Shown one piece after another: positions 334 to 16,347 of a stretch of 37,464 nucleotides of DNA (position 1 is the stretch's first letter; each line of letters opens with the position of its first letter). This stretch comes from a virus (taxonomy: Duplodnaviria > Caudoviricetes), in the IMG/VR virus record IMGVR_UViG_3300037851_000662, positions 1 to 37,464 of that record. One strand, given 5' to 3'. A program made the translations under genes and the position numbers. The notes under the pieces were generated by a model, which ran no database searches, was not told where the DNA came from, and saw only the letters and a program-made list of their open reading frames with translations.

Positions 334-1095
334 TCAGAAGTTGTAAACAAGAACCTCGGCGGCCTCTTTTCCGCCCCCCGTCGCGGACGCTGAATACAGG
401 GTTTTAACCGCTTTAATTTTAAAGCCTGCAAAAATATCCCGAACCTCCGGAACGTCGTTTAAAGAGAGGATAAACGCCCCTTTAATACCACTTAAAAGCT
501 GGGCCATTTCGACGAACTGCGCACGATTCCAGACCGCCGCGTAGTCTTTTTCGAACCCGTAGTAGGGCGGATCAATGTAAAACAATGCCCCCGGCGTGTC
601 GTGCCGACGGATGCATTCCAAAGCTTCCATGCGCTCGATGACGACCCGTTCCATTCTCCAGTGAACTTCAAGTATGCCTTCCTCGAGCGTGTTCAGGTTG
701 AGTGACGGTGGGCGCGTTTTATGGGCCGGCATGACACGGCCAACGGTTTTGCCCCCGAACCCGGTTCGTTGGAGGTAGTAAAACCGAACTGCGCGCTGAA
801 TGTCTGTCAGCGTGGTCGGGTCGGTGCGGTTCAGGGTATCAAATATCTCGCGCGATATCACGCAGTGCTTAAAGTGCCGGATGAACTCCTCGAAGTGGTT
901 CTGCACCACCCGCCAAAATGTCACCAAATCAAGGTTCATGTCATTAATGACCTCTACTTTTGATGGCTCTTTTTCAAAGAACACCCACGCCGCGCCACAA
1001 AATGGCTCCACATAGGTCTGATGCTCAGGGAACATCGCAACAATCTGCTTTGCCAGGCGACTTTTCCCTCCGAGGTAACTGATCGGGCTTTTCAT
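334..1095 (-). CDS. D12-class N6-adenine DNA methyltransferase (at the Mu mom position)
   Basis: YLGGKSRLA, YVEPFCGAAWVF (motif I), EVIND, FYIDPPY (motif IV); RBS CAGGAG. Confidence 0.93.
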   Translation of the reverse strand: MKSPISYLGGKSRLAKQIVAMFPEHQTYVEPFCGAAWVFFEKEPSKVEVINDMNLDLVTFWRVVQNHFEEFIRHFKHCVISREIFDTLNRTDPTTLTDIQRAVRFYYLQRTGFGGKTVGRVMPAHKTRPPSLNLNTLEEGILEVHWRMERVVIERMEALECIRRHDTPGALFYIDPPYYGFEKDYAAVWNRAQFVEMAQLLSGIKGAFILSLNDVPEVRDIFAGFKIKAVKTLYSASATGGGKEAAEVLVYNF

Positions 1096-1135
1096 TCTGC
1101 ACTCCTGTTTGATACCGTCCCGCCGTTCTGTGTAT

Positions 1136-1219
1136 GGCTGGCGGGCAGCGGTTTATCCGTGGCCATGTGAGAGTGGCCATTCAAGGGAGTGCGAATCCCG
1201 GCGACTGTCCGTCAGTCGC
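1136..1219 (+). ncRNA. Candidate cloverleaf RNA in the methylase leader
   Basis: 13-bp closing stem 1136-1148/1205-1217 with three G-U pairs on +, enclosing three hairpins; extended -10-like TGATACCGT at 1110-1118. Confidence 0.55.
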
Positions 1220-1786
1220 TTAATATCCAACAGCCTGCCAAGCAATGTCTCCGCTGATGGCCTGCGTAACCGTAAATCCGGAAAACGAATAACCATCTGC
1301 GCCTGCCCCGCCGTCTGACCCGCTATTCCTAAACGGTTTTTGGGTCACGACGACATTGAGACAGGCGTTTGGAAAATTGGTAGGAAACGTGACAGTTGTG
1401 GCTCCTCCGCAATATGCCACTCCCCACTGAAAAATCAGTCCTCCCGGCATTACGTAGTATCCGTTCGTCGCGATAAGGAGGCTGCCGTCCGGGTTCACAT
1501 ACCCCTTCAGGTCGGCGGGGGTAATGACAGAATCTGTTCCAGTTCCAACGGCAACTTCCGCCGGCGTTGAAAAGCGAACGGTTCCGACCGTTCCTGTCGT
1601 TGCCGTGGCGGGGATTAATTCATCCAGATCTTCCAGGACACCCTGCACATTTGTGCTGGATGAGTGGCCGAGCGACGCCGGGGCAACCGACACCTGTTTT
1701 GCCGGGGTCGTCGGCAGCGCGGCCGCGCTGAACGCCAATGCAAAAATCAGTGCGATAAGGGTGAGTAACCGATGTTTAATAAGCAT
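1220..1786 (-). CDS. Tail-fibre tip (gp53-like) domain protein with N-terminal signal peptide
   Basis: C-terminus NGYYVMPGGLIFQWG...VTFPTNFPNACLNV...WQAVGY; fibre motif ATTGTVGTVRFSTPAEVAVGT...ITPADL; N-terminus KHR + hydrophobic core + AAA. Confidence 0.75.
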   Translation of the reverse strand: MLIKHRLLTLIALIFALAFSAAALPTTPAKQVSVAPASLGHSSSTNVQGVLEDLDELIPATATTGTVGTVRFSTPAEVAVGTGTDSVITPADLKGYVNPDGSLLIATNGYYVMPGGLIFQWGVAYCGGATTVTFPTNFPNACLNVVVTQKPFRNSGSDGGAGADGYSFSGFTVTQAISGDIAWQAVGY

Positions 1787-1803
1787 GAGTTTTCCTTTCC
1801 TTT

Positions 1804-2154
1804 TTAAATGCCGCGATAGAAAACGCGGACGTCATCTTCCGCTGTAATGGCCGGCGTAAATGTGATTGTTTTTCCGGCGATGTTGTAATCGCTCCCTTGC
1901 ACTGCGAGCAGGCGGCCGATGAACACCTGGACGCTCGCGTCAGAAACCGGAGTATATGCCAGCACGGCGGTGTTGGTTGATCCGGTTTTGTTTTCGACAT
2001 AGTCCGCGCCGAGCCTGTTTTTGAGCCACAGGGTGCGGTTCGCCAGCTGCTGCGCCTGGCGGTTGGATACCCCGTTAGGTCCGCCCTGGACCGGATCGTC
2101 CTCTTCAATCTGATAAACGTTGTCAAATGAATCCGCTGGTACAATATTTGCCAT
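1804..2154 (-). CDS. Tail-fibre baseplate-anchoring protein (short)
   Basis: VYQIEEDDPVQGGPNGVSNRQAQQLANRTLWLK is the typical N-terminus of fibres that follow P2 gpI; ends after a small beta domain. Confidence 0.75.
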   Translation of the reverse strand: MANIVPADSFDNVYQIEEDDPVQGGPNGVSNRQAQQLANRTLWLKNRLGADYVENKTGSTNTAVLAYTPVSDASVQVFIGRLLAVQGSDYNIAGKTITFTPAITAEDDVRVFYRGI

Positions 2155-2768
2155 TATGCTGCCTCCGTATAGGTGGGTTGATAGGTCCTCGTGCCGTCAT
2201 AGAGGAATGCGGCGTTGTGCCGGAAGAAAAGCTTCTGATATCCAACAGACACCAGCACGCACCGCGCCGGAGCGGTGCGGACCAACAGGTTGATCAAATA
2301 ATCAGAAGGAATCGGGTCTGAGTTTTCAATCGTAATCGACCAGAGCGCCCAATTATTTGACGACCCATACGAGATCGATCCGTCATGATTCACCGCTCCG
2401 GAATACCGCGAGATGTCCGCCCCGATGGTAATGGTCGATGATCCATATCCGGCCGCTGCAAGAACCGCCTTAATTGACGCCATCGTCCCCTTGCTCCGAT
2501 GGACTGCGATTGAGGCTTTAATGATCGCCCGCTTTTCGGTTGCGGTCGCCCCCGCGGGCCACTCGCCAACCGATGCGGCCCATGCCAAAAACGGCAGCAC
2601 GGATTCCGGGCAGGTATCCGGGTCCGTCACATCAATCAGTGCCTGCAGATCCAGATTAAAGGCCCGGCTTGCGGCGATATCAATTGCATACGAACCTCTC
2701 GGCGAACGGCCCGAGTCCGGGAGCGGCGCTCCGGGGAGAAGGGATCTGTCAGCAAGCCCGATCATCAC
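2154..2768 (-). CDS. P2 gpI-like tail/baseplate protein
   Basis: SLLP...DPDTCPESVLPFLAWAASV..W...KRAIIKASIAVHRSKGT. Confidence 0.9.
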   Translation of the reverse strand: MMIGLADRSLLPGAPLPDSGRSPRGSYAIDIAASRAFNLDLQALIDVTDPDTCPESVLPFLAWAASVGEWPAGATATEKRAIIKASIAVHRSKGTMASIKAVLAAAGYGSSTITIGADISRYSGAVNHDGSISYGSSNNWALWSITIENSDPIPSDYLINLLVRTAPARCVLVSVGYQKLFFRHNAAFLYDGTRTYQPTYTEAA

Positions 2769-3826
2769 TCATCCCTCCCTGAAACCGAAACCTGAACCGA
2801 CGTGCAGAAGGCGGCCTGTCCGGAAGACACCTCGATTCGCGCGGCGGGAGAGATCAGGATGACCTCCTGAACGCCCGCCACATGAAGGGCCGCCAAAAGC
2901 CCGCTCAGCGTGATGTCGTGCCCGCAGGCGTGGTGCTCCTCCACATAAGCCAGCGCGGCGGCCGTCGCGGCGGCGCGGACCGTCTCCTCGTCTACTCCAT
3001 AACAAAGCGTCAGCCTGGCCTCAACCGTATACTCGATAATCTCGGCGCTTATCACCTCGGCCTTATCACAAAGCGGAATCTTTGTTTCGGGGTCCAGCGC
3101 ATCCTTAACAAACGGCAGAATCCCGGCCCGCTCCCCGTTAAGCAAAGCGCCGGTCAGCGCGCCCGTCAGCTCGGTTGAGCCGGCCTCAAAATCATCATCC
3201 AGCGTAAAAACAGCCCCGCCCTCGAACGTCAGCTGCTGGCCGCTGGACAGCGCGGAAAGCACGTCGGTCACCGTAATGGAAACGGCCCCGTCCGCGTATC
3301 CATCCGGGTTGTCTACCCGCGCACCGAAACACGCGCCATTTCCGGTCTTGGAAAGCACGGCGACATTCACGCGGCCGCCGATGCCCGGATTAAAAACAGA
3401 CACGCCCTTTATATTGCTATGTGCCGAGAGCGCATGAAATTTATACGCCCCGGCCGGACCGGCCACTGAATAAGCCTCCGGCGACAACTGGCAGCGCGCC
3501 CTGAACGCCGCATCGGTCTCGCCGGAAAGCCGCGCCAGCGGAACAGCCAGCGATGCGGCCACGTGATCCAGATCTGTCCCTGTCGCGAACGCCAGAAGGC
3601 GCGCCTTAAACTTGTCGTTTGCCTCCGCTCGAATGCCAACTTCCCGATAGGCTGCCACCAGAAGGATCTGATAGGCGGGATCGGACGGGACCAGCGCATT
3701 AAACGCCGGATCAAGCTGCTGCAGCTTCGCCAGCATCTCCTGGAAAATTTTCTCGGCCGAAAGCACCTCGACCGCCCGCGGGGCGGCCAGCTTGCTCAGA
3801 TCGATGGGTGTAAAAACCTGACTCAC
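2765..3826 (-). CDS. Baseplate J (P2 gpJ/gp47 family) with internal insertion
   Basis: IDLSKLAAPRAVE, LAFATGTDLDH, ETDAAFRAR, YSVAGPAGAYKFHALSA, ALHVAGVQEV. Confidence 0.93.
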   Translation of the reverse strand: MSQVFTPIDLSKLAAPRAVEVLSAEKIFQEMLAKLQQLDPAFNALVPSDPAYQILLVAAYREVGIRAEANDKFKARLLAFATGTDLDHVAASLAVPLARLSGETDAAFRARCQLSPEAYSVAGPAGAYKFHALSAHSNIKGVSVFNPGIGGRVNVAVLSKTGNGACFGARVDNPDGYADGAVSITVTDVLSALSSGQQLTFEGGAVFTLDDDFEAGSTELTGALTGALLNGERAGILPFVKDALDPETKIPLCDKAEVISAEIIEYTVEARLTLCYGVDEETVRAAATAAALAYVEEHHACGHDITLSGLLAALHVAGVQEVILISPAARIEVSSGQAAFCTSVQVSVSGRDE

Positions 3827-4176
3827 GATATTTGAATTCCTTGCAAAACAACCGGCTCACCGGTCGGCATGTAATATCCTTCCAGAGTGATCGAGACGCT
3901 CCCGCCCTGAACCTGTTCAGAGTTTGATGCATCAAACAGCACGCGGGTTGTTTTCAGCTCCGGCTCCCAGCGGTTCAGAACCCCGGCGGTGGCCGCCACG
4001 AACCGGGCGCGCACGGAAGCATTTATTGGCGCATCGATCAGGCGGAACAATTCACTCCCGTACTCCCGACGGAGAACAAGCGCGGCCGGCGCGGTGCGCA
4101 GAATGTTCTCCACGCGCTGGCGGAGGTGCTCCAGCCCGCTCAGCGGCTTCCCCGTGTCTTTATGCATTCCGTTCAT
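3823..4176 (-). CDS. Baseplate wedge gpW/gp25 family
   Basis: GMHKDTGKPLSGLEHLRQRVENIL...RREYGSEL..LIDAP...RWEPEL. Confidence 0.92.
   Translation of the reverse strand: MNGMHKDTGKPLSGLEHLRQRVENILRTAPAALVLRREYGSELFRLIDAPINASVRARFVAATAGVLNRWEPELKTTRVLFDASNSEQVQGGSVSITLEGYYMPTGEPVVLQGIQIS
3904..3921 (-). promoter_or_regulatory. Late-activator box copy inside gpW, upstream of gpJ
   Basis: CTGAAC-CT-GTTCAG at 3907-3920 with the same flank as the other three copies. Confidence 0.5.
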
Positions 4177-4210
4177 GGTTTAGATATTGGTTATTCGTTA
4201 TTGGTTATCG
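4174..4210. repeat. Heptamer array (GTTATTG family) upstream of gpW
   Basis: GATATTG GTTATTC GTTATTG GTTATCG; 31/33 identical to 6098-6130. Confidence 0.8.
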
Positions 4211-4240
4211 GTCGTAACAACGCAAAAGAAGATTCCGTCA

Positions 4241-4501
4241 TCACCCGGCCTCCGCGTCAACGGCATACTTAACGGGCAGAATATTCCAAAACTCCTCCTC
4301 GGATGTCACCAGGTGGAACTCCCCGCGCTTCGTGCCATGCAGCCACTTAATCCCGACGCCTTGTGCGCCGCCGTCATAACCGGATCGGCCCGCGAACTCC
4401 ACGGACGTCACCCGAAACCCGGCTCCGGGATACATCGGGCCGAAGCCATACACATTCCCGACCGCCAGCGGCTTCCGTTTGATTTTCTCCTGCACGCTCA
4501 T
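4241..4501 (-). CDS. Hypothetical protein
   Basis: ATGA overlap with the upstream gene; fills a gap in the tail operon. Confidence 0.6.
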   Translation of the reverse strand: MSVQEKIKRKPLAVGNVYGFGPMYPGAGFRVTSVEFAGRSGYDGGAQGVGIKWLHGTKRGEFHLVTSEEEFWNILPVKYAVDAEAG

Positions 4502-4995
4502 GCGGTCACCATCACCAGATAAACAATCAGGCCCTGCGCCGCTCCGTAATAAACTTCAGCCTGCTCCCAGGCGCTGCCGAAAAACTTAAAGCCTGGGCGA
4601 ACCGGATGCTGTCCGGCCTGCGTTACACAAAACGGGAAAGCCATCGCGATCAAGTGCAATCCGGAAACCAGAGCAAAGGCATCGCACCCGCATAGATGGA
4701 GCACAAGGAACACCGGAGCCCACAGCCAAATCCCGCGCACATAAAGACCATAAAAAAACAGATCATCGTTGGCATCTTTCAATATGCCGCCGATCAGATG
4801 ACCCCAGCTCCAGCATTCGCCAAGCACATACGCCGGGAAAAGAGCCGCCGCCCACCAGCTGTGCGTCATCAGTCCCGCCACGGCCGCCAGCACAAGGCCG
4901 ATCACCTTGGCAAAAATTCCCTTCGTTCCGCGCGCCCGGTTGAGCACCGCGCCGGCGACGATCGCAACCGGAATAAACAGCAGTTTAATCATCAT
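4498..4995 (-). CDS. Hypothetical multi-pass membrane protein
   Basis: GGAGG RBS, several hydrophobic segments. Confidence 0.7.
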   Translation of the reverse strand: MMIKLLFIPVAIVAGAVLNRARGTKGIFAKVIGLVLAAVAGLMTHSWWAAALFPAYVLGECWSWGHLIGGILKDANDDLFFYGLYVRGIWLWAPVFLVLHLCGCDAFALVSGLHLIAMAFPFCVTQAGQHPVRPGFKFFGSAWEQAEVYYGAAQGLIVYLVMVTA

Positions 4996-5008
4996 CAGAG
5001 CACCTCCA

Positions 5009-5047
5009 TTTCAGATTTCCAGTTCCAACTTTCAGGTTTCAGGTTTC
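5009..5047. repeat. Heptamer array (TTTCARG family) containing the gpD stop
   Basis: TTTCAGA TTTCCAG TTCCAAC TTTCAGG TTTCAGG. Confidence 0.85.
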
Positions 5048-6100
5048 TTTCGCGCTTTCACACTCCAGCGCGGTTCGGTATCCGCTTCCATCGATCGTGT
5101 GCACCGCCCGGTTAATCAGCCAGTCACCGGCCAGATCGCTCCCCAGCTCATCGCCGACAACCAGCACGCCCTCCGCCGCCAGAATCGGTTCCCCCTCACA
5201 ATTAAACGTCGGTTGCGACGCACCGCGCCCGATACGGCGCAGCTCGGCCGCTGCCGCCGAGGCCGCCTCCTCCGGGGTCGGATAATTCCCGCGCAGTTCT
5301 TTTTGCGGCTCGCCTTCGCCGGCCGTAATCTTCTTCCGCTCGGCCGCCGAAACATCGTGGTAATACGCCGCCACGCTGAGGTAGTCTTCCCGCTCCGCCA
5401 CCGTAATCCGGTAGCTGTTGTCCTCCCCCGACAAAACCGCCCACGGCCCGGCCCCCGACCGCCTTACCAGCCCGGTATCCAGATAGACTCTCGGCACATC
5501 CACTCCGGAGATGGTTTTCCCCTTTGCCCTCTTCGCAAAAATCAGCTTGCCGCCCGCGGGCTTAAACACCGCGTCCCGCTCCTTCGCAAGGCGGCGGAGG
5601 AAATTGGCGTTCCCTTCATTCGTCTGATCGACGTGCCCGATCACCTCGCCGGCCAGATCCGGATCCACGCGCGGATCGAGGCCGCAGTCGGCGGCGACAT
5701 CAAAAACGATTGTTTCCAAGGTTTGGAAATCCCAGGAGCGCGTCCGCTGCGCCTTCATGGCCGTCTCCATTCCGGAGACAGTCGCCGACTTGTTTTTCCC
5801 GCTCCCCATCCAGGCGCTCTTTGCCCGGATCGTAATCTGGTGCGGAAGTCCGGACCGGTCATACTCATCAACCACAAACAACCCCATCTTCCGGAGGCCG
5901 GTCTCAATGTACCCCAGCGACACCTTCAACTCCGCACCGGCCTTGGGCGGAGCAATCTTCAGCCCGCGGTTGTCGATCGTCATCGAAAACGTATCGCTCT
6001 CGAAGCCCGACTCATCAGTCAGGTTCAGCGACACAAGCCGATCGCGGATCAGATCCGTGATCCGCTTGTCATCGGCTAAAATTTCATAGGCCGGGCGCAT
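5039..6100 (-). CDS. P2 gpD-like baseplate hub (late control D)
   Basis: ITDLIRDRLVSLNLTDESGFESD, LGY...MGLFVVDE, HVDQTNE..NFLRRLAKE. Confidence 0.92.
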   Translation of the reverse strand: MRPAYEILADDKRITDLIRDRLVSLNLTDESGFESDTFSMTIDNRGLKIAPPKAGAELKVSLGYIETGLRKMGLFVVDEYDRSGLPHQITIRAKSAWMGSGKNKSATVSGMETAMKAQRTRSWDFQTLETIVFDVAADCGLDPRVDPDLAGEVIGHVDQTNEGNANFLRRLAKERDAVFKPAGGKLIFAKRAKGKTISGVDVPRVYLDTGLVRRSGAGPWAVLSGEDNSYRITVAEREDYLSVAAYYHDVSAAERKKITAGEGEPQKELRGNYPTPEEAASAAAAELRRIGRGASQPTFNCEGEPILAAEGVLVVGDELGSDLAGDWLINRAVHTIDGSGYRTALECESAKET

Positions 6101-6134
6101 GGTTCGGATATTGGTTATTCGTTATTGGTTGTTG
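6098..6134. repeat. Heptamer array (GTTATTG family) upstream of gpD
   Basis: GATATTG GTTATTC GTTATTG GTTGTTG. Confidence 0.8.
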
Positions 6135-6171
6135 GTCTCGGCCGGAAGGACCGCCCCCGCACGACCTTTTT

Positions 6172-6210
6172 TTTCAAACTTCAAGTTTCCGGTTTCAAGT
6201 TTCACGTTTC
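6172..6210. repeat. Heptamer array (TTTCARG family)
   Basis: TTTCAAA CTTCAAG TTTCCGG TTTCAAG TTTCACG. Confidence 0.85.
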
Positions 6211-6214
6211 TCTC

Positions 6215-6439
6215 CTAGTCCCAAAGCCGGATCGTTTCTTTCTCCGCCGGCCGCTGCTCAGGTGTTCCAAAGTCTGGAAGCACAATCGAAACGCCGGCGT
6301 CAAGCACCGGGCCTCGGGCGGCCAGTCCGGGATTGGCGGCCAGCACCGCCTCGGTCACATCGGCTGTGCGGCCGTAGTGCCTGAAACAGACGGCATCCAC
6401 CATGTCGCCGTCTTTCGTTCTGTAGGTTGCCTCAGCCAC
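6215..6439 (-). CDS. P2 gpX-like tail protein
   Basis: YRTKDGDMVDAVCFRHYG...VLAANPGLA..GPVL.AG...LP...IRLWD. Confidence 0.93.
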   Translation of the reverse strand: MAEATYRTKDGDMVDAVCFRHYGRTADVTEAVLAANPGLAARGPVLDAGVSIVLPDFGTPEQRPAEKETIRLWD

Positions 6440-6450
6440 TCAAAAGCCCT

Positions 6451-6485
6451 TTTCCAGCTTCAAGTTTCCGTTTTCAAATTTCACG
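6451..6485. repeat. Heptamer array containing the gpU stop
   Basis: TTTCCAG CTTCAAG TTTCCGT TTTCAAA TTTCACG. Confidence 0.85.
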
Positions 6486-6888
6486 CTGCATCTCCCCCAT
6501 ACACGCTCAAGCGCAGCGTAAACGTCTGTTTGCGAGGAAGGCCGTCGATGTGCGGAAGGCTCTGCGTCTCCTGCACGCTCTCCAGGCACCACATCCCGTG
6601 AACGTTCCCGAAGCTGTCGCACAGCAAAACCGGCTTCCCCTTCGCCATCAGCGCGCGCAGCTTCGTCAGGCTGCCATAACCGCTGCGCTCCGTAATGAGG
6701 GTTCCGGCCAGCTCAATCGAGTCATCATCCGGGCCGAGGCTCTGGCGGCCGGGCAGGCGGCCCAGGCGCGGCTGTTTGGCCCAGCGCCAGGCGCTCGAGC
6801 GCTGGAGCGTCTCATAGGCCGCACCCATCACAGAAAAAATAAACAAATCCGGCTCCTGGCCAAGCGACAACAAAACGGAGTCAGCCAT
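6481..6888 (-). CDS. P2 gpU-like tail protein
   Basis: AAYETLQRSSAWRWAKQPRLGR..Q.LGP..D.IEL.G...G.PRKQTFTLRL. Confidence 0.92.
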   Translation of the reverse strand: MADSVLLSLGQEPDLFIFSVMGAAYETLQRSSAWRWAKQPRLGRLPGRQSLGPDDDSIELAGTLITERSGYGSLTKLRALMAKGKPVLLCDSFGNVHGMWCLESVQETQSLPHIDGLPRKQTFTLRLSVYGGDAA

Positions 6889-6924
6889 TGCTCAGCCCTC
6901 CCGTCGTCCGCGGCATCCGGCAGC

Positions 6925-7030
6925 GCTTAACCCGCAACCGCCAGCCCAAAACCATCAGCCGCAGCCGTCCACGCGCCACGCGCCACGCGCCACCTGCCAC
7001 TTGCCTCCCACCACCCGCCACTCGCCACTT
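6925..7030. repeat. Compound heptamer array (GCCACNY family plus a degenerate 7-periodic block) filling the tape measure-gpU gap
   Basis: GCCACGC GCCACGC GCCACCT GCCACTT GCCTCCC ACCACCC GCCACTC GCCACTT at 6975-7030. Confidence 0.8.
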
Positions 7031-7031
7031 C

Positions 7032-8861
7032 TTAATCATACAGCCTCGCTCTCTGCCGGGCGGCGTTGGCCCGCTGCCGGGCATCCAGCTCGCGGGATAC
7101 GGTCTTGGCGATATCCTCGCCGCTTTGCCCTGGGGCTGCGTTGATGGTGATTGGCGCATTGACCGTCGAGACCGACGATCCGCTGTTCGCGGGCGGCGGC
7201 AACGCGTCCGCCGCCAGCGGAGTTGTTGAAAGAGCCACCGCAGTTGCCGCGCCGGCCACAGCCTCTTTGGCACCCATTCCGAAAAACCGGCCAACCGCCT
7301 TGATTTTTTCCCATGCGGCTCCAATAAATTCCAGTGTTGGCTTCCACGCCTGCATCACCAGCCCAAGCGGAGTCCACGCAAACATCTTCTTCAAGAACTC
7401 CCAGACGACACCTGCGCCGGTTTTAATTGCACCCCAGACCCGATCCCAGTTCTTCACCAGAGCGCCAATCGCCAACCCGACAGCAATAATTCCGGCAATA
7501 ATCCATGTCACCGGATTGGCCAGCAGCGCGGCATTCAGCGCCCACTGCGCGGCCGTCCAAATCATTGTTCCGGCGGCCACCCCGACAATCGCGGCGGTCA
7601 CGCCGCCGATCACCCAGCCAAGCGGAGGAAACTTCTCAATCGCCCAGGCAATCCCTCCAAAAAGCATCCCGATCGGTTTCAGCACAAGATTCAGCCCCGG
7701 AAGAACCGACCCCGCGAGCACATTGCCGATCATCTTCAAATTCTGCCCGAACATCGTCATCTGCCCGGACGAAGAGTTCAAAAACCGTGCATACTCATCG
7801 TTAACCAGATTCGATCCGGCAGCGTCGCCAACCTCGGCATACGCCTTTTTCAAATCGTCCAGCTGATTAAGCAGCGGAACAACGCCGCGCTTGCCTTCGT
7901 CACCAAAAAGCTTCTGCAGAAGGTCTCCGCGCTCATCAATATCCAACCCATCAAGAGACTCTTTCATTCCCTCCATCGTCGCAATAAAGTCGAGAGAGCC
8001 GTCCGTCCCGCGAATCATTTCAAAGCCAAGTTCGTCGGCGGCCTTGGTCATATTTCGCAGAACGCCATTAAAGGCCGTGCCGGCCATCGACCCTTGCAAA
8101 CCGGCGGTGTTGAGCTGGCCGATCACCGCCGCTCCCTGTTCAAGAGGAACCTTCGCCCCGGCCATTCCGGCGGCCGCATACTTCATCGACTCGCCGAGCT
8201 GATTAAAGTCGCGAATCTGAAACTTGAATTGCGTCTTTGTCAGAACATTACCGATACGCTGCATTTTTTCCTCGGTCGAGCCAACCATGTCCCTGCCGAG
8301 GTTGTTTAACGTGGTAACAAAAACCTCGCCAACCTGCCCGGACTCGCCGCGCATTACCTTTGCCGCCTTGTGTATAAATTCAGTACCGGCCCGCGAAGCG
8401 GCGGCATCCAGTCCGCCGGAATTCAGCGCATATTCGATGTCGAGCACTTCGCTCTCTGTCGCCAGCGACCGGCGGGCAAAACTGCGGGCGTGGCTAAGGG
8501 ATGCCCCCACCGCGGCATCCCGGTCCGGAGCGTTGACAACCGTGCCAAGATAAACGCCTTGTTCCTCGATGGCGGCAGCGGCCTTGATCATCCGGCTTGC
8601 GCCATAAATTGCCGCGCCCGAGGCGATCCAGCGCCCCCGGCTTTCACTCAGCTGCTGGTTCAGCTCCTGCTGCCGGGTCTTCAGCCGGGCAATCTGCTCT
8701 TCCGACCGTCTCATCACGGGGGAGAGCTGCACGTGCTGCTTAATGGACGCGCCGATCTCCCGAGCATAATCCCTGAACGACTTCTGAACAGCCGCCATCA
8801 CTTGCTGATGCGAGCCCAGCAGCGCCGCACCGATTGTGATTTTTACATTCAGATCGCTCAC
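7032..8861 (-). CDS. Tail tape measure protein (TP901 family)
   Basis: LGESMKYAA, GLQGSMAGTA, KLFGDE, LLANPVTWI..NWD; position after the chaperones. Confidence 0.93.
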   Translation of the reverse strand: MSDLNVKITIGAALLGSHQQVMAAVQKSFRDYAREIGASIKQHVQLSPVMRRSEEQIARLKTRQQELNQQLSESRGRWIASGAAIYGASRMIKAAAAIEEQGVYLGTVVNAPDRDAAVGASLSHARSFARRSLATESEVLDIEYALNSGGLDAAASRAGTEFIHKAAKVMRGESGQVGEVFVTTLNNLGRDMVGSTEEKMQRIGNVLTKTQFKFQIRDFNQLGESMKYAAAGMAGAKVPLEQGAAVIGQLNTAGLQGSMAGTAFNGVLRNMTKAADELGFEMIRGTDGSLDFIATMEGMKESLDGLDIDERGDLLQKLFGDEGKRGVVPLLNQLDDLKKAYAEVGDAAGSNLVNDEYARFLNSSSGQMTMFGQNLKMIGNVLAGSVLPGLNLVLKPIGMLFGGIAWAIEKFPPLGWVIGGVTAAIVGVAAGTMIWTAAQWALNAALLANPVTWIIAGIIAVGLAIGALVKNWDRVWGAIKTGAGVVWEFLKKMFAWTPLGLVMQAWKPTLEFIGAAWEKIKAVGRFFGMGAKEAVAGAATAVALSTTPLAADALPPPANSGSSVSTVNAPITINAAPGQSGEDIAKTVSRELDARQRANAARQRARLYD

Positions 8862-8864
8862 AGA

Positions 8865-9014
8865 TTAACCTTTCGGCTGAACATCCTTCACCGCGCTGAG
8901 CCAGTCCATCAGCTCCTGGCCGTCCATCTCCAGCAGCTCACTCAGCGGCCACCCGGTGTGGCTCGCCAGAATCACACAGGCTTTCCGGGCGTCGCCGGGC
9001 GCAAGGATAAAAAA
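8865..9014 (-). CDS. GpE'-like extension reached by programmed -1 frameshift
   Basis: Slippery GAT TTT TTA (T6, 9009-9014); -1 frame reads FILAPGDARKACVILASHTGWPLSELLEMDGQELMDWLSAVKDVQPKG*. Confidence 0.85.
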   Translation of the reverse strand, partial: FFILAPGDARKACVILASHTGWPLSELLEMDGQELMDWLSAVKDVQPKG

Positions 9015-9247
9015 TCGCGATAAGTCTCCTGCAGCGTCAGATAGTCGGCCATATCCAGCTCCTGCATGTCGTCGGGGGAAATGCCAACCAGCGAGGCAAA
9101 CAGGGCGAGCTCTTTTTCGGCATCGCTGGCCTTCGGCCGGTCGCTCAGCATCATGTCCCGGACCTTCGGCCGGCGCATGAGCAGCTCGCTCGTTTCTCGG
9201 CCGTCAACTTTAATAGGGAACCGCAGTGTAATTTTAACAGGAGTCAT
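8972..9247 (-). CDS. Tail assembly chaperone (P2 gpE/gp41 family)
   Basis: ITLRFPI...LMRRPKVRD...LFASL...ELDMADY..LQ. Confidence 0.9.
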   Translation of the reverse strand: MTPVKITLRFPIKVDGRETSELLMRRPKVRDMMLSDRPKASDAEKELALFASLVGISPDDMQELDMADYLTLQETYRDFLSLRPATPGKPV

Positions 9248-9328
9248 GGTGTCCTTTCGGTGTCGTTTAATCGTCGTTTAAATGGCGGGCAGTTTAAAGA
9301 GATGCCCGGCTCCGGCGTGGCGGTCCTT

Positions 9329-9370
9329 CGGTTCAAGCTCAAAGCCTGAGGTCTGAAGCCTGAGGTCTAA
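9329..9370. repeat. Heptamer array (AGCCTGA/GGTCTGA family)
   Basis: AGCTCAA AGCCTGA GGTCTGA AGCCTGA GGTCTAA. Confidence 0.75.
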
Positions 9371-9374
9371 ATCA

Positions 9375-9947
9375 TCATCCGATCTTCGTGGCTGCGAACT
9401 GGGCGAGGGCGCTCACCAGGGCGCGGGCCGTTCCGGCGTCGCCGCCTTCAAGGATCGCCCGGTGCGCAATCATCTGGTCCACGCCACCGATCGTATAGAC
9501 GTTGTTCTGCACGTCCACCAGGTGAACGATCTCGTCGTCAACCTTCAGCTCATAGAAGTTCACCGCCATCGTGAACTTGGTTTCGCTCTTCTCGCCCGGC
9601 TTCATCGTGCCAAGGTCGGCCTCCGTGATCTTCCCGCGCAAGGTGATGACAATCGAGCCGACGTTCCCCTGTTCGTCGTCAATCACGCCGCGCATTTGGA
9701 CGTTGACAGCGTGGTGCGCCTGCAGGCCGGCCAGCTTGAGCAGGTGTTTATCCGCCTCGGCCAGTGTGAAGCTGGCGGACAGCTTTTCATAGCCCATCGT
9801 GTATTCGACCGGGCCGCCCATTCCGCCGCCGCGGTATTCCTCGGTTTTTGAGGTCAGTTTGGGCGGGGTCAACTCGGTCACCTTGCCCATATAGGTGCGC
9901 GCGTCCGCAAACAGGTTGATGTTCTTCAGCATTCTCGGCAGTGCCAT
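9375..9947 (-). CDS. Major tail tube protein (P2 FII-like)
   Basis: MALPRMLKNINLF...PKLT.KTEEYRGGGM.GPV...GVDQ. Confidence 0.95.
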   Translation of the reverse strand: MALPRMLKNINLFADARTYMGKVTELTPPKLTSKTEEYRGGGMGGPVEYTMGYEKLSASFTLAEADKHLLKLAGLQAHHAVNVQMRGVIDDEQGNVGSIVITLRGKITEADLGTMKPGEKSETKFTMAVNFYELKVDDEIVHLVDVQNNVYTIGGVDQMIAHRAILEGGDAGTARALVSALAQFAATKIG

Positions 9948-9960
9948 AATGATTCTCCCT

Positions 9961-9994
9961 TTTCAGGTTTCAAGTTTCAGGGTTCAGCTTTCGC
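9961..9994. repeat. Heptamer array (TTTCARG family)
   Basis: TTTCAGG TTTCAAG TTTCAGG GTTCAGC. Confidence 0.85.
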
Positions 9995-11173
9995 TTAGAC
10001 GATCGATTCCAGATAGTCCGTGTTCAGGTTGTACCGGAAGGTCACCTTCGTGGCCGTCGGATGGTCGATGAAGTCGAAGCTGAAAACCGCGTTGCCGAGG
10101 TTTATATCGGCCGCCTCGTTCAGATCCAGGTCAACCCAGCAGTCGCCGCCGGCAATAATATTGCGCGCCTTCAGGTTGCGCAGAAACGCCTTCACCCCGT
10201 CGGTCACATCTTCGAAATAGCGCTTCGTGATCGGCCGGTCGACCGCCCACAGGTGTGCAGCCTGAATGCTGTCCGCAATAATATCGGAAATACGGACTCG
10301 GGTGATCTGGAGCCACAGGTTGTCCGTTTTCTGCGCGGTCCACGATCCCCACAGCCGGAAGCCATCCTCGCGGATGATCGTGTTCACGTGGAAGCCGGCC
10401 AGAATATCCGCCTCGCAGGCGGCATCGCCCAGGGCGAAATCAATCGGCCGGCTGGTCCCGGAAATCACCGCGCCGAGCTGGCCCGACCAGTTGCTGGGGC
10501 TCCAGTGGTACCCGCGGCCGTCGGCATTGTCATTTTTACTGAACAGCGCGGCAACGACCGGAGAAACCGGCTGTTCATCACCCGCCAGGTCCTTCACCCA
10601 GGGATCAATCATGAATCCTCGCTTGCTGCCAACCAGCCCCAGGGCGGTGTTCGCTGCGGCCGCGTCGTCGTTCGGGCCGTCCAGGATCGCAATCGCCCGC
10701 AGGCGCTCAGCGATCGCACACAGGGCGGTCGCCAGCGGCGCCGCCGTGATGGCCCCATCGACAATCGTGTATCCGTCGGCTCGCGGGCAGCAGAGAATTC
10801 GGGGCTGAAGGCCGGTCACCGCCTTGGCGTTGAGCAGCGCATAAATTCCGGTGCGCTGTGTCGCATCGCCCAGGGCGGAGGCCAGCGTGTCCGCGGCATA
10901 ACGGGTAACGATGATCACCGGGTTAATCAACCCGCAGATCATATTGACGGCATCAAGGGCGTTGCCTCCGTCCTCGGCCCCGGCCGGGTAGATTGCGGCG
11001 CGCAGCGCGGCCGGGCTCCCGTAAAACGCCACCGGGGTGTCCAGCGGAAGCACGTCGGCATCGGCGTCCGGCGCGTACACAGCCAGGCCGATAATGCTGG
11101 ACCGGATCGTCGAGATCGGCCGCACGCCGCTATCGACAAGAACAGTTTCAACACCTCTCACAAGGTCACTCAT
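9995..11173 (-). CDS. Tail sheath protein (P2 FI-like)
   Basis: GVETVLVDSGVRPISTI.SSIIG, RTGIYAL, PRIL, GYHWSPSN, GFRLWG, HLWAVDRPI; start 11173 (or 11179) after GAGGAG. Confidence 0.95.
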   Translation of the reverse strand: MSDLVRGVETVLVDSGVRPISTIRSSIIGLAVYAPDADADVLPLDTPVAFYGSPAALRAAIYPAGAEDGGNALDAVNMICGLINPVIIVTRYAADTLASALGDATQRTGIYALLNAKAVTGLQPRILCCPRADGYTIVDGAITAAPLATALCAIAERLRAIAILDGPNDDAAAANTALGLVGSKRGFMIDPWVKDLAGDEQPVSPVVAALFSKNDNADGRGYHWSPSNWSGQLGAVISGTSRPIDFALGDAACEADILAGFHVNTIIREDGFRLWGSWTAQKTDNLWLQITRVRISDIIADSIQAAHLWAVDRPITKRYFEDVTDGVKAFLRNLKARNIIAGGDCWVDLDLNEAADINLGNAVFSFDFIDHPTATKVTFRYNLNTDYLESIV

Positions 11174-11435
11174 GGTCATCTCCTCTTATTGCGGCCGGTG
11201 CTTCCGGCACATTTGTTTCTTCAGCGGCCGCGCGGCCTCTGCCTCTTCGTCTTTGCTCGGGCTGGCCCTGTGCCTGCCCCTTATCATCCGAGCCACTCGC
11301 CACTTGACACTCGACACACGTCACTTTCCCCTGCGCCTCAAGCCACTTCACTCCGCCGCCCTCAACCTCCAGCGTGTCGCCAGGCATCAACCGGCGGCCT
11401 TTGTGCCAGCACTCTTTTTTGACAACGAATTTCAC
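11166..11435 (-). CDS. Small hypothetical protein; C-terminal half encoded by repeat-like DNA
   Basis: AAGGAGG RBS, GTG start; between gpV and sheath; contains heptamers 11292-11326 and a REP-like hairpin 11258-11280. Confidence 0.7.
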   Translation of the reverse strand: MKFVVKKECWHKGRRLMPGDTLEVEGGGVKWLEAQGKVTCVECQVASGSDDKGQAQGQPEQRRRGRGRAAAEETNVPEAPAAIRGDDHE

Positions 11436-11444
11436 AAATCCTCC

Positions 11445-12092
11445 TTAGAATTGGTTTCCACCCGGCACCAGCGCCGTCCCAAGCACCGTGGCCGCCTGCA
11501 GCGTTGTCGCTCCAGTTACCTCCAGCACTCCTGTGATTTTCACCGCGCCGGTCAGATTGATGTTCGGCGCGGTCACGGCGGCGGCGACAGCAGCCGTGGC
11601 GCTCAGCGACCCAAGGGTGTCAACCTCCACATCGCCGGCGGCTTCCACCTTAACGCGGCCGCCGGAGACAACCCTCACATTGCCGTCGGCCACAACCGAC
11701 ACCGCCCCTGCGCAGCCGATCGACATCTCATGCGTGTCCAGATCGACCTGCACAAAGGTGCCGTCGGAGTAAACCGTTTTAAAAATCAGCGGATTGGAAG
11801 AGGGGTTCGGATTGGCCGCACTGCCAAGCGAGGCAACAATCACACCCTGTGCCGGGTCGCCGTTGTGGCAAAGCACCAGCACCTGCTCGCCGGCGACCGG
11901 CGCGGCCCAATCTTTGCGACTGCCCATGCGAGGAGACATCCAGGGCAGCTTCGCGGTCGTCAGGTCGCCGATCTTAACGCGCGCGCGGCCGCTCGGCGAG
12001 TCAACGTCAATCACCGTGCCAAACATTATCAGATTGGCAACGCGCCGCTCGACTTCGCGCAGATCGAATTGAGATGGATGGTCTGTCCTCAT
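11445..12092 (-). CDS. Baseplate spike/assembly protein V
   Basis: ERRVANLIMFGTV..VD...ARV..G...T..LPW...W.AP.AGEQVLVL...GD...G. Confidence 0.94.
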   Translation of the reverse strand: MRTDHPSQFDLREVERRVANLIMFGTVIDVDSPSGRARVKIGDLTTAKLPWMSPRMGSRKDWAAPVAGEQVLVLCHNGDPAQGVIVASLGSAANPNPSSNPLIFKTVYSDGTFVQVDLDTHEMSIGCAGAVSVVADGNVRVVSGGRVKVEAAGDVEVDTLGSLSATAAVAAAVTAPNINLTGAVKITGVLEVTGATTLQAATVLGTALVPGGNQF

Positions 12093-12102
12093 GTGTCATG
12101 AG

Positions 12103-12147
12103 AATCAGCCAAAAAGGAAAAGCAAACCGCCCTGAACGGGTTCAGAA
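12103..12147 (-). promoter_or_regulatory. Late promoter of the tail operon (activator box plus -10)
   Basis: TTCTGAACCCGTTCAGGGCG on minus; GATTCT at the same offset as TAGATT in the head promoter. Confidence 0.7.
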
Positions 12148-12148
12148 G

Positions 12149-12724
12149 TTACGCGGCCGGCGGATTCGGGTCGATCGGTTCCAGCCCATCCGATGCGTCA
12201 GACTCGCTGGATAAATAAACCCCCTCCGGGACAACACCGCCCGGCCACGGCAGCCCGTTTGTGTACATCAGGTCCGCGGTGCTCGGGTCCCCCAGCTGGA
12301 TCAGCTGCCGCCAGGCAACGGCATTCAGCGAGACGCCCCGGCCGTTCAACACCGTTGAAATTAGATTCTGCCACGAAACCTGCTTCGGCCTCGCCACGCC
12401 GGCGATATTCGACTGCGTGTTTTTAACAACAACCTGCGCCGCCTCGCTCAGGTTCAGCCCGATAATGTCCCGGTGCTGCTCAGCCGTGACAATGAAGGCC
12501 GAAAACACCGTGTCAGAATACTGCGTATCATCCCCGGCATCAGCGGACGGCTGGGCCGAAATCGCGGCGACAAACACCGCCGGTGATTTAACGCTCATAC
12601 GCTGCAGCGCGTCGGCATCCACCCGGCCCTCATGGATTTCGACCGACGCCCTGGGGAAGGCGGCCTTAAACACCTCAACCCATCGCTCCAGCGTCTGCAC
12701 CCGTTTCAGTTTTTCCAGGGCCAT
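12149..12724 (-). CDS. Mu gp37-like tail terminator/neck protein
   Basis: Position after gpG; VEIHEGR.D...L.R.....PAVFVA...W.NL.S...AVAWRQ. Confidence 0.65.
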   Translation of the reverse strand: MALEKLKRVQTLERWVEVFKAAFPRASVEIHEGRVDADALQRMSVKSPAVFVAAISAQPSADAGDDTQYSDTVFSAFIVTAEQHRDIIGLNLSEAAQVVVKNTQSNIAGVARPKQVSWQNLISTVLNGRGVSLNAVAWRQLIQLGDPSTADLMYTNGLPWPGGVVPEGVYLSSESDASDGLEPIDPNPPAA

Positions 12725-12759
12725 TGTCAGTTCTCCGTTAGCGGTTCTCAGTTATCCGG
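12725..12759. repeat. Heptamer array (TNTCAGT family)
   Basis: TGTCAGT TCTCCGT TAGCGGT TCTCAGT TATCCGG fills the whole gap. Confidence 0.6.
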
Positions 12760-13195
12760 CCAGCTGCTGCTGCCACCACACATTGATCAGCCCGCTGATC
12801 TGCTGCTCGTCTTCGGGACTCAACCCAAGGAACTCGCGCTGCGGAATCCCGCGCCTCGCGTCCCCGAACTGGTGCGTCGCCGCATAAGCCAGATTTGTTC
12901 CAACCTCCACCGAGGCTCCGGACACCAGGTGCACCAGGCTGTCGCGCAGATCGCCCTCCAGCTCCAGGATGCCGCCGCCTTTCTTTTTGCGCTGCTCATA
13001 CGCCGGACTCAGCTCCGGCCACTTCGTTCCATCTGGCGCGGTCTTTGTGGATTTAACCCGCTCCTTCGTCTGGGCCTCCACCAGCGCCCCGATCCCGTCG
13101 AAAAGCGGATTAAAATCCAGATTCAGCAACCGGCTGACCAACAGATCAACCCAGCTGAACCCCTCAGCCCTTACACTGACAGACGCACCGGCCAT
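12752..13195 (-). CDS. Virion morphogenesis protein (Mu gpG family)
   Basis: APDGTKWPELS, ILELEGDLRDS, VGTNLAYAATHQFG, IPQREFLGLS; likely start ATG 13195 (MAGASV). Confidence 0.93.
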   Translation of the reverse strand: MAGASVSVRAEGFSWVDLLVSRLLNLDFNPLFDGIGALVEAQTKERVKSTKTAPDGTKWPELSPAYEQRKKKGGGILELEGDLRDSLVHLVSGASVEVGTNLAYAATHQFGDARRGIPQREFLGLSPEDEQQISGLINVWWQQQLAG

Positions 13196-13223
13196 TTCCT
13201 GCCTCCCCACCCAAACGCCTTCT

Positions 13224-14921
13224 TCACGGGGTAGACACATCAATTCGAATTTCGCCGCGCGTTGTGGCCGGGCAGACAAACTGGGTGTTTGCCTCATAAT
13301 AAATATACGGGAAAATCTGGTTTGGCGTGCTGTACCCGAGAGAAGCTGCTCTGTAGATCAGATCTCCGGTTCCGATGAGAGAGAGAGACACTTCCTTCCC
13401 GGTCAAATCACTGCACTCCCATGCCTCGCCCTCCCTGATCCAGCCGACGGTTGTGAGTGCATTGCTCCCTGCGCATTCCACACCGTTAAATGTGAGAGTG
13501 GAGCTGGTGGCATTTCCGACGTGGATCAAATGCGACCCCTTAATGATCACCCAGCTCGCATCGTTTGTTGCCGCGCCTCCGGCATACATCTCCACCCTGT
13601 TCGCCTCGTTTGTTACAACCACAACAGCCCCGGCGGACAGGTTGGTCAGGGCCAGCTTGTCAGCATTTGAGCCAACAAACCGCGTCCAGATATCCGCCAG
13701 CGCATCCGTCACAGCCGCATTGCTCGGCACGGTGTTCGTGCCGCCGGTGACTGTTGGCGTGACGGAACCGGTATCGAGCTTCGTGGCAAACTGACCTGGG
13801 AAAAACTCAACCCACACGGTTTCCGGCGACCAGCCGTATGTCGGCGGGATCGCGCATCCTTGCGAAGTCACTGCGCTTATGTTCGCGTTCGATGAAACAA
13901 CTTCTCCGCCAAGCTTTATTTCCCAATGGTCGAAATTGAACAGAACAGTATTGGTCCCCGGCGCACCGTACTGGGCATAGCCATCGGTCACGTTGTAAAA
14001 ATCCATACGAATCACATCATTGCTCGTATGCACGCTTATATAGCTGTTCGTGACCGTTCCAAGCAGGCTGTCCCGGATGTTGTTCAACACCACAACCTTT
14101 GTCTCAAGCGCCGTCGTTGCCGCCTGACTTACAACTTGGTCCGTATTAGTGCCCATTGTTTGGACAACCGCTGTTTTATCAAGCTTGGTGTCCACGTCCG
14201 CCGGGGACGCCGCCCCGACAGCCTGCCGAAACGCCTCGGTTTGAGAGACGTACACGAGAGAAGGATTCGGCGAATTGTCACCGTAATCGACCCAATCGGA
14301 CGCCGCTTTGGGCGGGTTTTGCGGTCTTTGTTGTACATGCGAGGTGTGATAAAAGTACCAAGTATCTATCAGGGCTCCATCGGTATAAAACCGTTGAACA
14401 ACGTCCCACCATTCCGAGGTCTCGTCATTATTCGGCTGCACGTAGAACCCAGACACAAACAACCCGCCCTGCGGCTCCGGACCCCATAAAGCCGGTGCGT
14501 TCGTCCCGGACAAAAGCCAATAATTCGTGTTTGCGGCGGCATAACCCGAGTTTGTGACAGTAATGGAGAGCGGAGCCGCCGAAATATTCCCCCCGTCAAG
14601 ATCGAGCTTGGTTAATACCAATTCCGCCGCCGCCACGGCCTGCGTGTAACCCGCGGCCGTCGGTTGCACAGCAGACAGGGCCGCGCTGCTGACGGCGGGA
14701 TAGTTTGCCGGCCGGGCGGCGTTGATTAAATCGACGACGTTCGTGCCATCCACAATCACCGCCAGTGCATCGTTGGTTCTCGCGCACACCTGCGCAAACC
14801 GGGCATCTGGCGTTCCGATAAACTCCGTCCCGCTGTCCGGCGAAAGCCCTCCGACTGCGTGGATGGCCTGCGAGGCCCCGGCCAGCGACAAAACGAGTAG
14901 AACAAGATCAATCCTCTTCAT
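13224..14921 (-). CDS. Signal-peptide-bearing, fibre-like hypothetical protein (565 aa)
   Basis: GGAGGAG RBS before ATG 14921; MKRIDLVLLVLSLAGASQA; three TKLD segments and VVQTMGTNTDQVVSQAATT fibre-like motif. Confidence 0.75.
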   Translation of the reverse strand: MKRIDLVLLVLSLAGASQAIHAVGGLSPDSGTEFIGTPDARFAQVCARTNDALAVIVDGTNVVDLINAARPANYPAVSSAALSAVQPTAAGYTQAVAAAELVLTKLDLDGGNISAAPLSITVTNSGYAAANTNYWLLSGTNAPALWGPEPQGGLFVSGFYVQPNNDETSEWWDVVQRFYTDGALIDTWYFYHTSHVQQRPQNPPKAASDWVDYGDNSPNPSLVYVSQTEAFRQAVGAASPADVDTKLDKTAVVQTMGTNTDQVVSQAATTALETKVVVLNNIRDSLLGTVTNSYISVHTSNDVIRMDFYNVTDGYAQYGAPGTNTVLFNFDHWEIKLGGEVVSSNANISAVTSQGCAIPPTYGWSPETVWVEFFPGQFATKLDTGSVTPTVTGGTNTVPSNAAVTDALADIWTRFVGSNADKLALTNLSAGAVVVVTNEANRVEMYAGGAATNDASWVIIKGSHLIHVGNATSSTLTFNGVECAGSNALTTVGWIREGEAWECSDLTGKEVSLSLIGTGDLIYRAASLGYSTPNQIFPYIYYEANTQFVCPATTRGEIRIDVSTP

Positions 14922-16345: not shown

Positions 16346-16347
16346 TT

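What the first reader, a model, noticed from the sequence alone, without database searches (positions are those of the whole stretch)
1220..2154. Tail fibre split into an anchor protein and a signal-peptide-bearing tip domain
Seen: the fibre N-terminal anchor ends after 116 aa with a small beta domain. The gp53-like tip domain is a separate 188-aa gene with its own RBS and MLIKHRLLTLIALIFALAFSAAA|LP leader. There is no long fibre, fibre chaperone or invertase. A frameshift or nonsense lesion would not create an RBS plus signal peptide. Inference: the receptor-binding part is exported and docks on the virion after or during envelope crossing. With the two proteins at 13224-15705 this suggests a periplasmic virion-maturation pathway.
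Basis: partly seen in the sequence, partly recalled or inferred. Interest (0 to 1): 0.8.

Follow-up and report, generated by a model that had tools for sequence, protein, structure and literature searches.

The report
Exported tail fibre, cytoplasmic socket
A Mu-like prophage and its relatives split the tail fibre into a signal-less socket protein and a short, tip-swapping fibre with a predicted secretion signal, whose removal would expose the exact end predicted to plug into the socket, so the particle likely gets its host-recognition fibre only outside the cytoplasm.

Summary
Confirmed and extended. In a complete Mu-like prophage, the fibre slot holds a leaderless 116-aa protein and a separate 188-aa protein with a Sec-type leader. 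The split is conserved: 7 of 7 distinct loci show stop, AAGGA and a new start, in all three frames. All 17 proteins covering the whole mature module carry a leader, though the search profile had none. Tips fall into 7 unrelated groups.

The 116-aa protein is a fibre anchor plus a CBA120 TSP4 XD2-like domain (Z 9.4). The exported protein starts with a T4 gp12-like N-terminus. A 3:3 model scores 0.92 (best control 0.00) and uses the first residues after the predicted cleavage site; likeness to gp10-gp12 may inflate this.

Best reading: the fibre is exported, cleaved, and docks at lysis. Export and presence on virions are untested. Four other prophages in the same host order keep fused leaderless fibres. 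Leader-bearing phage proteins share a Thr-Asn excess with the host's exported proteins.

This scan found signal-bearing fibres before on other DNA, including this socket layout; my ten paper searches did not find the route.

The parts
2008..2154 (-). Socket protein residues 1-49: P2/Mu-type tail-fibre baseplate anchor, no leader
   Evidence: phrog_3100 and phrog_4209 N-termini; N-termini of annotated tail fibres of BcepMu, phiE255 and others
1804..2007 (-). Socket protein residues 50-116 and stop: XD2-like beta domain; residues 79-85 (1900-1920) form the predicted docking surface
   Evidence: VIA-align Z 9.4, rmsd 1.5 A over 62 residues to CBA120 TSP4 187-250; top Foldseek rows are TSP4-N, E 2e-3; interface; R81, A84, P101 invariant in 13 sequences
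1793..1797 (-). Shine-Dalgarno AAGGA, 6 nt before the fibre start
   Evidence: sequence; same element in 7 of 7 loci
1718..1786 (-). Predicted Sec/SPI signal peptide, residues 1-23, ending A-A-A
   Evidence: Ala -1 invariant in 19 of 19, Ala -3 in at least 90%; mean pairwise identity 0.38 against 0.60 for the module
1505..1717 (-). Conserved mature module, residues 24-94: docking peptide (24-31) plus one T4 gp12/gp34-type shaft repeat
   Evidence: phrog_910 positions 16-87, E 5e-7; homologue P0064 43-98 aligns to T4 gp12 30-88, whole-sequence E 0.0013; profile hits gp12 and gp34; interface residues 24-28 and 31
1220..1450 (-). Swappable receptor-binding tip, here gp53-like / R-pyocin-fibre-like, with stop
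   Evidence: PF21882 E 4e-14; Foldseek 6ct8, 6cl6, 4mtm E about 2e-4 on a low-confidence model; 7 tip groups among 19 homologues
14908..15705 (-). Leader-bearing 265-aa late protein in the gp36-gpS slot; possible BppU_N-like first domain (lead only)
   Evidence: Atlas features 0.92 to a cluster with BppU_N on 13% of members, structure TM 0.60-0.65 to BppU_N clusters
13224..14924 (-). Leader-bearing 566-aa late protein in the same slot, no family, Thr-Asn rich (12 seen, 3.8 expected)
334..34686 (.). Context: complete Mu-like prophage gene set (MuA/MuB, Mu head, P2-like contractile tail) between host pgk-like and pilT-like genes; exact ends not mapped

Best explanation
The prophage encodes its tail fibre as two proteins: a leaderless socket, predicted to stay on the baseplate in the cytoplasm, and a short gp12-like fibre that is likely exported by Sec, likely cleaved after Ala23, and predicted to plug its new N-terminus into the socket, most likely when lysis mixes particles with the periplasm. 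Shown by sequence and searches: two genes, conserved split, conserved leader, conserved docking module, swapped tips, replacement of a fused fibre at the same slot. Predicted: XD2-like socket fold, 3:3 docking through residues 24-31. Inferred: export, cleavage, the need for cleavage before docking, and timing at lysis. Why export is used is open. Disulfide formation is unlikely to be the general reason. A host envelope modification at Thr-Asn is a lead.
For: Split in 7 of 7 loci, with own ribosome site and no common frame. Leaderless profile over 1.84 billion representatives: among the best 150 hits, 17 cover the whole module and all 17 start at residue 22-28 behind a hydrophobic leader ending in Ala; 16 pass my heuristic, the 17th is cut at its N-terminus. 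Socket domain matches TSP4 XD2, and in T4 gp10 XD2 binds gp12 (PMC8825819, passages). The mature module matches the gp12-family N-terminus in 14 of 15 homologues scanned and in the window protein. Complex score 0.92, best of 3 controls 0.00; the mark was reached by 116 of 157 solved complexes and 2 of 215 mismatched pairs (rough here: own alignments, 3:3 job); runs agree in at least 95% of contacts, partner pLDDT at least 95. Four other prophages in the order hold a fused leaderless fibre at this slot, one of them anchor plus gp53-like tip with an assembly chaperone. Thr-Asn observed/expected: fibres 2.05, slot cassettes 4.15, host leader-bearing proteins 1.53, host cytoplasmic 0.96. Precedent: phi18:3 gp085-087, annotated from MS/MS as structural or tail proteins, have Sec-like leaders.
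Against: No experiment: no export, cleavage or virion data, and no cultured member (no match for the fibre among 50,697 phage records). Signal calls come from inspection and a loose heuristic that also flagged 5 other window proteins of 45. The complex was folded from a chain already cut at residue 24, and gp10-gp12 is solved, so the pass may come from likeness; the uncleaved form was not modelled. Fused leaderless fibres work in the same host order (4 of 6 matching genomes), so export is not imposed by the host. The window's own fibre has only 3 Thr-Asn (P 0.055). Post-lysis docking in a diluting mixture is kinetically less safe than cytoplasmic assembly (reasoning).
Confidence: 0.65

Rival explanations
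1. The fibre joins the baseplate inside the cytoplasm: a fraction escapes export, and its leader is removed or bypassed there, as in ordinary branched receptor-binding complexes.
For: All characterised socket-and-fibre systems that I read about or recall assemble without export (PMC8825819, PMC13352976; the cytoplasmic site is general knowledge). In-frame TTG codons lie at mature residue +1 in 3 of 6 loci checked.
Against: Those TTG codons have no ribosome site by inspection and are absent from the window, L045 and L046. Leader chemistry is kept in 17 of 17 proteins while its sequence drifts. Thr-Asn excess matches host exported proteins, not leaderless late proteins (0.97).
Confidence: 0.15
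2. The protein is an exported decoy or cell-surface adhesin of the lysogen (like Bdellovibrio MAT fibres or a receptor-masking moron) and never joins the virion.
For: MATs share the layout signal peptide + conserved N-domain + diverse tips (PMC10769870, passages). Phage proteins with Sec leaders have been read as host-envelope modifiers (PMC10367356, passages).
Against: It sits in the late tail operon directly after a tip-less socket in 7 of 7 loci, and no other fibre was recognised in the window. It is predicted to bind that socket through conserved residues. In 401 genomes of the class, the two full-module matches lie in prophage tail context; a third, partial match (G080, E 1e-4) was not examined.
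Confidence: 0.12
3. The leader is an uncleaved membrane anchor that tethers fibres in the inner membrane, where particles pick them up with membrane attached or after later intramembrane cleavage.
For: One relative encodes a rhomboid protease at the end of its leader-bearing cassette (PF01694, E 1e-9).
Against: Short hydrophobic core, Ala at -1 and -3, Pro at +2 and never +1. No rhomboid was recognised in the window. The predicted interface begins at residue 24.
Confidence: 0.06
4. The split is a lesion, an assembly error or a recoding site in one fused fibre gene.
For: In the window and L042 the fibre frame is reachable by a -1 shift at the stop.
Against: Frames differ across 7 loci (three in frame, two +1, two +2). 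No longer form among 74 candidates for socket residues 50-116 (weak evidence by the tool's own note).
Confidence: 0.01

Closest known systems
T4 gp10 (XD2) with short tail fibre gp12; CBA120 TSP4-N XD2/XD3 branching hub (PMC8825819; abstract and passages read)
   Same: Trimeric beta-jelly-roll socket binding a trimeric fibre across the three-fold axis. The fold matches XD2, and the partner's N-terminus matches gp12.
   Different: The socket is one XD domain on a P2/Mu fibre anchor, with no XD1, XD3 or tip of its own. The fibre keeps one shaft repeat and carries a Sec-type leader, which the passages read do not report for these proteins.
Klebsiella podophage branching domain plus conserved docking peptide (KP32, K11, KP34; PMC13352976, abstract and section list only)
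   Same: An anchor-bearing protein holds a second receptor-binding protein through a short conserved N-terminal peptide; tips are exchangeable.
   Different: Contractile Mu-like phage; the docking peptide is hidden behind a 21-26-residue leader.
Fused P2/Mu-type fibres and AP22 gp53 / R-pyocin fibres (4mtm, 6ct8, 6cl6)
   Same: Same gene slot, same anchor, same tip family in the window.
   Different: Single leaderless chains, often with an assembly chaperone next door (L064; loci sampled).
Bdellovibrio MAT fibres (PMC10769870; passages read)
   Same: Signal peptide, then a conserved N-domain, then diverse tips.
   Different: MATs are bacterial surface or vesicle proteins with a ~130-aa beta-rich N-domain; this one is a late phage gene paired with a baseplate socket.
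Cellulophaga phage phi18:3 gp085-gp087 (NC_021794)
   Same: Sec-like leaders on proteins annotated as structural or tail proteins from MS/MS.
   Different: Other phage family and host phylum; sequence relationship not tested; the record offers no mechanism.

Membership tests
gp10-like XD socket (branching domain) | Small beta-jelly-roll fold like XD2/XD3 | tested here: met
   Z 9.4, rmsd 1.5 A, 62 aligned, 23% identity to 7rfv 187-250; next unrelated row Z 8.7, so the margin is small. Model pLDDT 68-86 in this part.
gp10-like XD socket (branching domain) | Trimer binds a trimeric partner's N-terminus | tested here: inconclusive
   Model supports it: 0.92 against best control 0.00, three-fold interface; binding itself not measured, and likeness to solved complexes may help.
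gp10-like XD socket (branching domain) | Attached to the baseplate by an N-terminal anchor | tested here: met
   Residues 1-57 match tail-fibre N-termini; attachment inferred from homology.
T4 gp12-type short tail fibre | gp12 N-terminal region and shaft repeat | tested here: met
   phrog_910 positions 12-91; 5iv5_O 30-88; profile E 9e-14 to 9f4b gp12, summed over repeats.
T4 gp12-type short tail fibre | Several shaft repeats and a gp12 collar/receptor domain, about 450-530 aa | tested here: not met
   One repeat, 183-251 aa, tips from 7 groups. Works like gp12 at its base; not a gp12 orthologue.
Sec/SPI substrate | Basic n-region, hydrophobic core, A-x-A, no Pro at +1 | tested here: met
   by composition and conservation, not SignalP.
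Sec/SPI substrate | Translocation and cleavage in vivo | not testable with these tools
   Needs fractionation and N-terminal sequencing.
Lipoprotein (SPII) or Tat substrate | Lipobox Cys at +1, or RRxFLK motif (recalled consensus) | tested here: not met
   No Cys at +1 in 17 of 17; adjacent RR occurs in only 2 of 17 leaders and not as RRxFL (by inspection).
Bdellovibrio MAT fibres | Conserved ~130-aa beta-rich domain after the signal peptide; bacterial surface location | tested here: inconclusive
   The module here is ~71 aa and gp12-like; no direct comparison with MAT sequences was run.
Gp53-like_C tip (PF21882) | Pfam match above gathering score | tested here: met
   53.3 bits against cut-off 24.9; only 4 of 19 homologues have this tip.

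The most novel reading that the evidence does not exclude
Tailed phages have an extracytoplasmic finishing step: the host's signal peptidase unmasks the docking end of the receptor-binding fibre in the periplasm, so fibreless particles become infectious only at lysis. The socket-and-leader design makes tips freely swappable without a fibre chaperone, and may let the phage dress its fibres with an undescribed Verrucomicrobiota envelope modification at Thr-Asn (that last clause alone about 0.2).
Probability: 0.55. Interest if true: 0.88.

Novelty: new variant of a known kind. Interest (0 to 1): 0.74.

Why it matters
Tailed-phage particles are taken to be finished in the cytoplasm (textbook knowledge). 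This locus gives a small, two-gene test case with a defined interface: the predicted docking residues are the ones created by signal-peptide cleavage. If true, infectivity would be switched on by a host envelope enzyme and by lysis, and fibre genes with leaders, now easily dismissed as morons, would need re-reading as virion parts. The Thr-Asn signature shared with host exported proteins also points to an uncharacterised feature of the envelope proteins of these bacteria.

Tried and rejected
Fused form of this pair: none among 74 longer candidates, and none among the best 150 of 1,001 profile hits; the 133 other hits matched as repeats or in part.

Programmed frameshift or readthrough: rejected, frames differ. 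In one search my L062 start index was 3 nt late; the junction printed gives 19 nt, same frame.

Disulfide need as the reason for export: not general, 9 of 17 mature fibres have 0 or 1 Cys.

Classical N-glycosylation: STT3 (PF02516) over cut-off in 1 of 89 genomes of the order, none in G001 or G085; sequons per Asn are no higher in the fibres than in leaderless fibres (0.23 against 0.21-0.25).

Wall-less host as the reason for the missing endolysin: rejected, FtsW/RodA in 88 of 89 genomes and transpeptidases in 5 of 5, although PF00912 was not found in 5 of 5.

Homologues of the 14908 protein in four relatives: 0 of 4. NCBIfam: 0 of 19 unknown ORFs. Promoter and terminator scans were at chance level. 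The monomer model of the mature fibre was poor over residues 1-80 (pLDDT under 50), so only its tip hits are used. The single-protein viral scan returned only anchor-part matches (41 loci). A sequence look-up in the scan's notes found nothing.

Full report
Context. The window holds a complete Mu-like prophage gene set on the minus strand: transposase and MuB, Mu-type head genes, and a P2-like contractile tail ending in baseplate J, gpI, the two genes in question and a DNA methyltransferase. The nearest relative with a title lies in an uncultured Verrucomicrobiota genome. The window's own host was not determined; 'Kiritimatiellia' is my recalled guess and the wording of earlier scan notes, not a result here.

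Observation. The 116-aa ORF (1804-2154) and the 188-aa ORF (1220-1786) are as described. All 12 close homologues of the first are 116-117 aa (a search limited to 63-203 aa); a search for longer forms with residues 50-116 scored none of 74 candidates. Seven distinct loci with DNA (window, L042, L043, L044 = L049, L045, L046, L062) show socket stop, AAGGA and fibre ATG 18-22 nt apart, in three different frames. This excludes a lesion and a shared recoding site.

The leader. I built a profile from the mature module alone (6 sequences) and searched 1.84 billion representatives: 1,001 hits, best 150 seen. Seventeen cover the whole module in one stretch, and all start at residue 22-28 behind a hydrophobic leader ending in Ala. 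Sixteen pass my heuristic; the 17th lacks its first residues. Of the other 133 hits, 3 pass. The heuristic is loose: it flags 8 of 45 window ORFs, 5 of them not leader-bearing. The case therefore rests on conservation: Ala -1, Pro +2 and Gln +8 are invariant in 19 of 19, while leaders average 0.38 identity, modules 0.60 and tips 0.17. Tips form 7 groups by BLAST among 19 proteins, and several match phage fibre families.

What the parts are. Residues 50-115 of the 116-aa protein match CBA120 TSP4 residues 187-250 (Z 9.4, rmsd 1.5 A; top Foldseek rows too, E 2e-3). That entry is the N250 fragment lacking XD3, so the match is XD2. The paper states that XD2 of T4 gp10 binds the short tail fibre gp12 across the three-fold axis (PMC8825819; abstract and 12 passages seen). 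The fold is common in phage adaptors, and the next row scores 8.7. Independently, the mature module matches the start of the gp12-like family phrog_910 (positions 12-91) in 14 of 15 homologues scanned and in the window protein, and one homologue aligns to T4 gp12 residues 30-88. The window's tip is gp53/R-pyocin-like.

Docking. Three copies of socket 34-116 with three of fibre 24-98 scored 0.92, best of 3 controls 0.00. The mark was reached by 116 of 157 solved complexes and 2 of 215 mismatched pairs, counts that hold only roughly for this job. Runs agree in at least 95% of contacts, and partner pLDDT is at least 95. The interface is socket 79-85, 88-89, 101, 103, 107 against fibre 24-28 and 31, the first residues after the predicted cleavage site. 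Both sides include invariant positions. The pass may owe something to solved gp10-gp12, and I did not model the uncleaved chain.

Distribution. In the 89 genomes of G001's order, 6 match the socket profile: 2 have the split pair, and 4 have fused leaderless fibres with only the anchor part. One of these, L064, is anchor plus gp53-like tip in one 185-aa chain followed by a fibre assembly protein. The split pair thus replaces a fibre and its chaperone, and export is not forced by the host. In 401 genomes of the class the module matched 3, two of them fully and in prophage tail context. No cultured phage matched the fibre.

The second cassette. The gp36-gpS slot holds leader-bearing proteins in the window, G003, G001/G002 and G079; the window's two have no BLAST match among the others. 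G079 has a fused fibre, so the cassette does not depend on the split. The 265-aa protein has a BppU_N-like lead only.

Thr-Asn signature. I noticed this by eye, so it is post hoc. It ranks first among dipeptides in the 25 leader-bearing phage proteins (2.73-fold): 43 against 10.4 expected in 8 cassette proteins (P 3e-14) and 44 against 21.5 in 17 fibres, which are related and so not independent. G079's cassette gives 18 against 6.9. In about 800 kb of G001's 2.7 Mb, 59 leader-bearing proteins give 1.53 (P 8e-6, driven by a few large proteins), 369 cytoplasmic ones 0.96. Controls: 133 other repeat fibres 1.15, 21 leaderless late proteins of the window 0.97, 12 exported E. coli proteins 0.48. 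This supports shared passage through the host envelope. Its cause is unknown; STT3 is nearly absent from the order.

Mechanism. The socket is likely built onto the baseplate in the cytoplasm. The fibre likely crosses the inner membrane by Sec, loses residues 1-23, trimerises, and docks when the holin-like protein (25289-25786) opens the membrane. Only the gene layout and its conservation are shown; the rest is predicted or inferred.

Literature. Ten full-text searches listed no paper describing export-dependent fibre assembly in tailed phages, nor a Thr-Asn signal; for most papers I saw only listings and abstract starts, and the library lacks most subscription journals. PMC10367356 (4 passages) notes Sec leaders on Porphyromonas phage genes of unknown function and reads them as envelope modifiers. 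PMC10769870 (7 passages) describes MAT fibres. PMC13352976 was seen as abstract and section list, PMC12309495 as 3 passages with nothing relevant. No supplements were read; virion proteomics tables there could bear on precedent. The phi18:3 record lists gp085-087 as MS/MS-based structural or tail proteins; they have Sec-like leaders, whereas 8 other MS/MS-annotated proteins I printed do not.

Earlier scan notes. 47 notes hold my search words, and e1-6001872 describes a socket plus leader-bearing fibres on other DNA. They are leads, not support. This locus adds the leader-blind survey, the fused counterpart in the same host order, the interface at the new N-terminus and the Thr-Asn signature.

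Verdict. Real and conserved. A known socket-and-fibre architecture with a route that I could not find in print. Interest 0.74.

Noticed in passing
window 24581-26358 (-); L057, L059-L060, L113: No endolysin or spanin was recognised in the window or seen among ORFs of three near-complete relatives, though the host order has cell-wall synthesis genes. A 124-aa viral protein of no known family sits just before the holin-like gene.
   Followed up: partly
L058 5412-6005 (-), same as L059 5357-5950: A prophage-encoded rhomboid protease closes a cassette of three leader-bearing proteins (PF01694, E 1e-9).
   Followed up: partly
L056 15810-17099 (-): Leader-bearing 429-aa cassette protein with trypsin-like motifs by eye; no Pfam or PHROG match.
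   Followed up: partly
L056 17136-17621, L058 7164-7667, L112 17724-18527 (all -): A small leader-bearing protein with a shared motif, seen by eye, follows gp36 in three relatives but is missing from the window.
   Followed up: no
G001 loci L067-L086 and L089-L108: Host leader-bearing proteins are enriched in Thr-Asn (1.53-fold), strongly in a few large surface-type proteins.
   Followed up: partly
window 4241-4995 (-); L043 807-1118, L044 7699-7983: Variable genes between gpD and gpW: a 165-aa multi-pass membrane protein and an 86-aa protein in the window, and a small lipoprotein-like gene in two relatives. No family matches for the window pair.
   Followed up: no
L110 1034-2586, L112 1357-3221: Two fused-fibre prophage regions carry, after the fibre, a related small protein and a radical-SAM-like gene (by eye); L110 lacks head genes between tail and transposase and may be a tail-only element.
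   Followed up: no
G001, G056, G078, G079, G085: No class-A PBP transglycosylase domain (PF00912) in 5 of 5 genomes, while SEDS proteins and transpeptidases are present.
   Followed up: no
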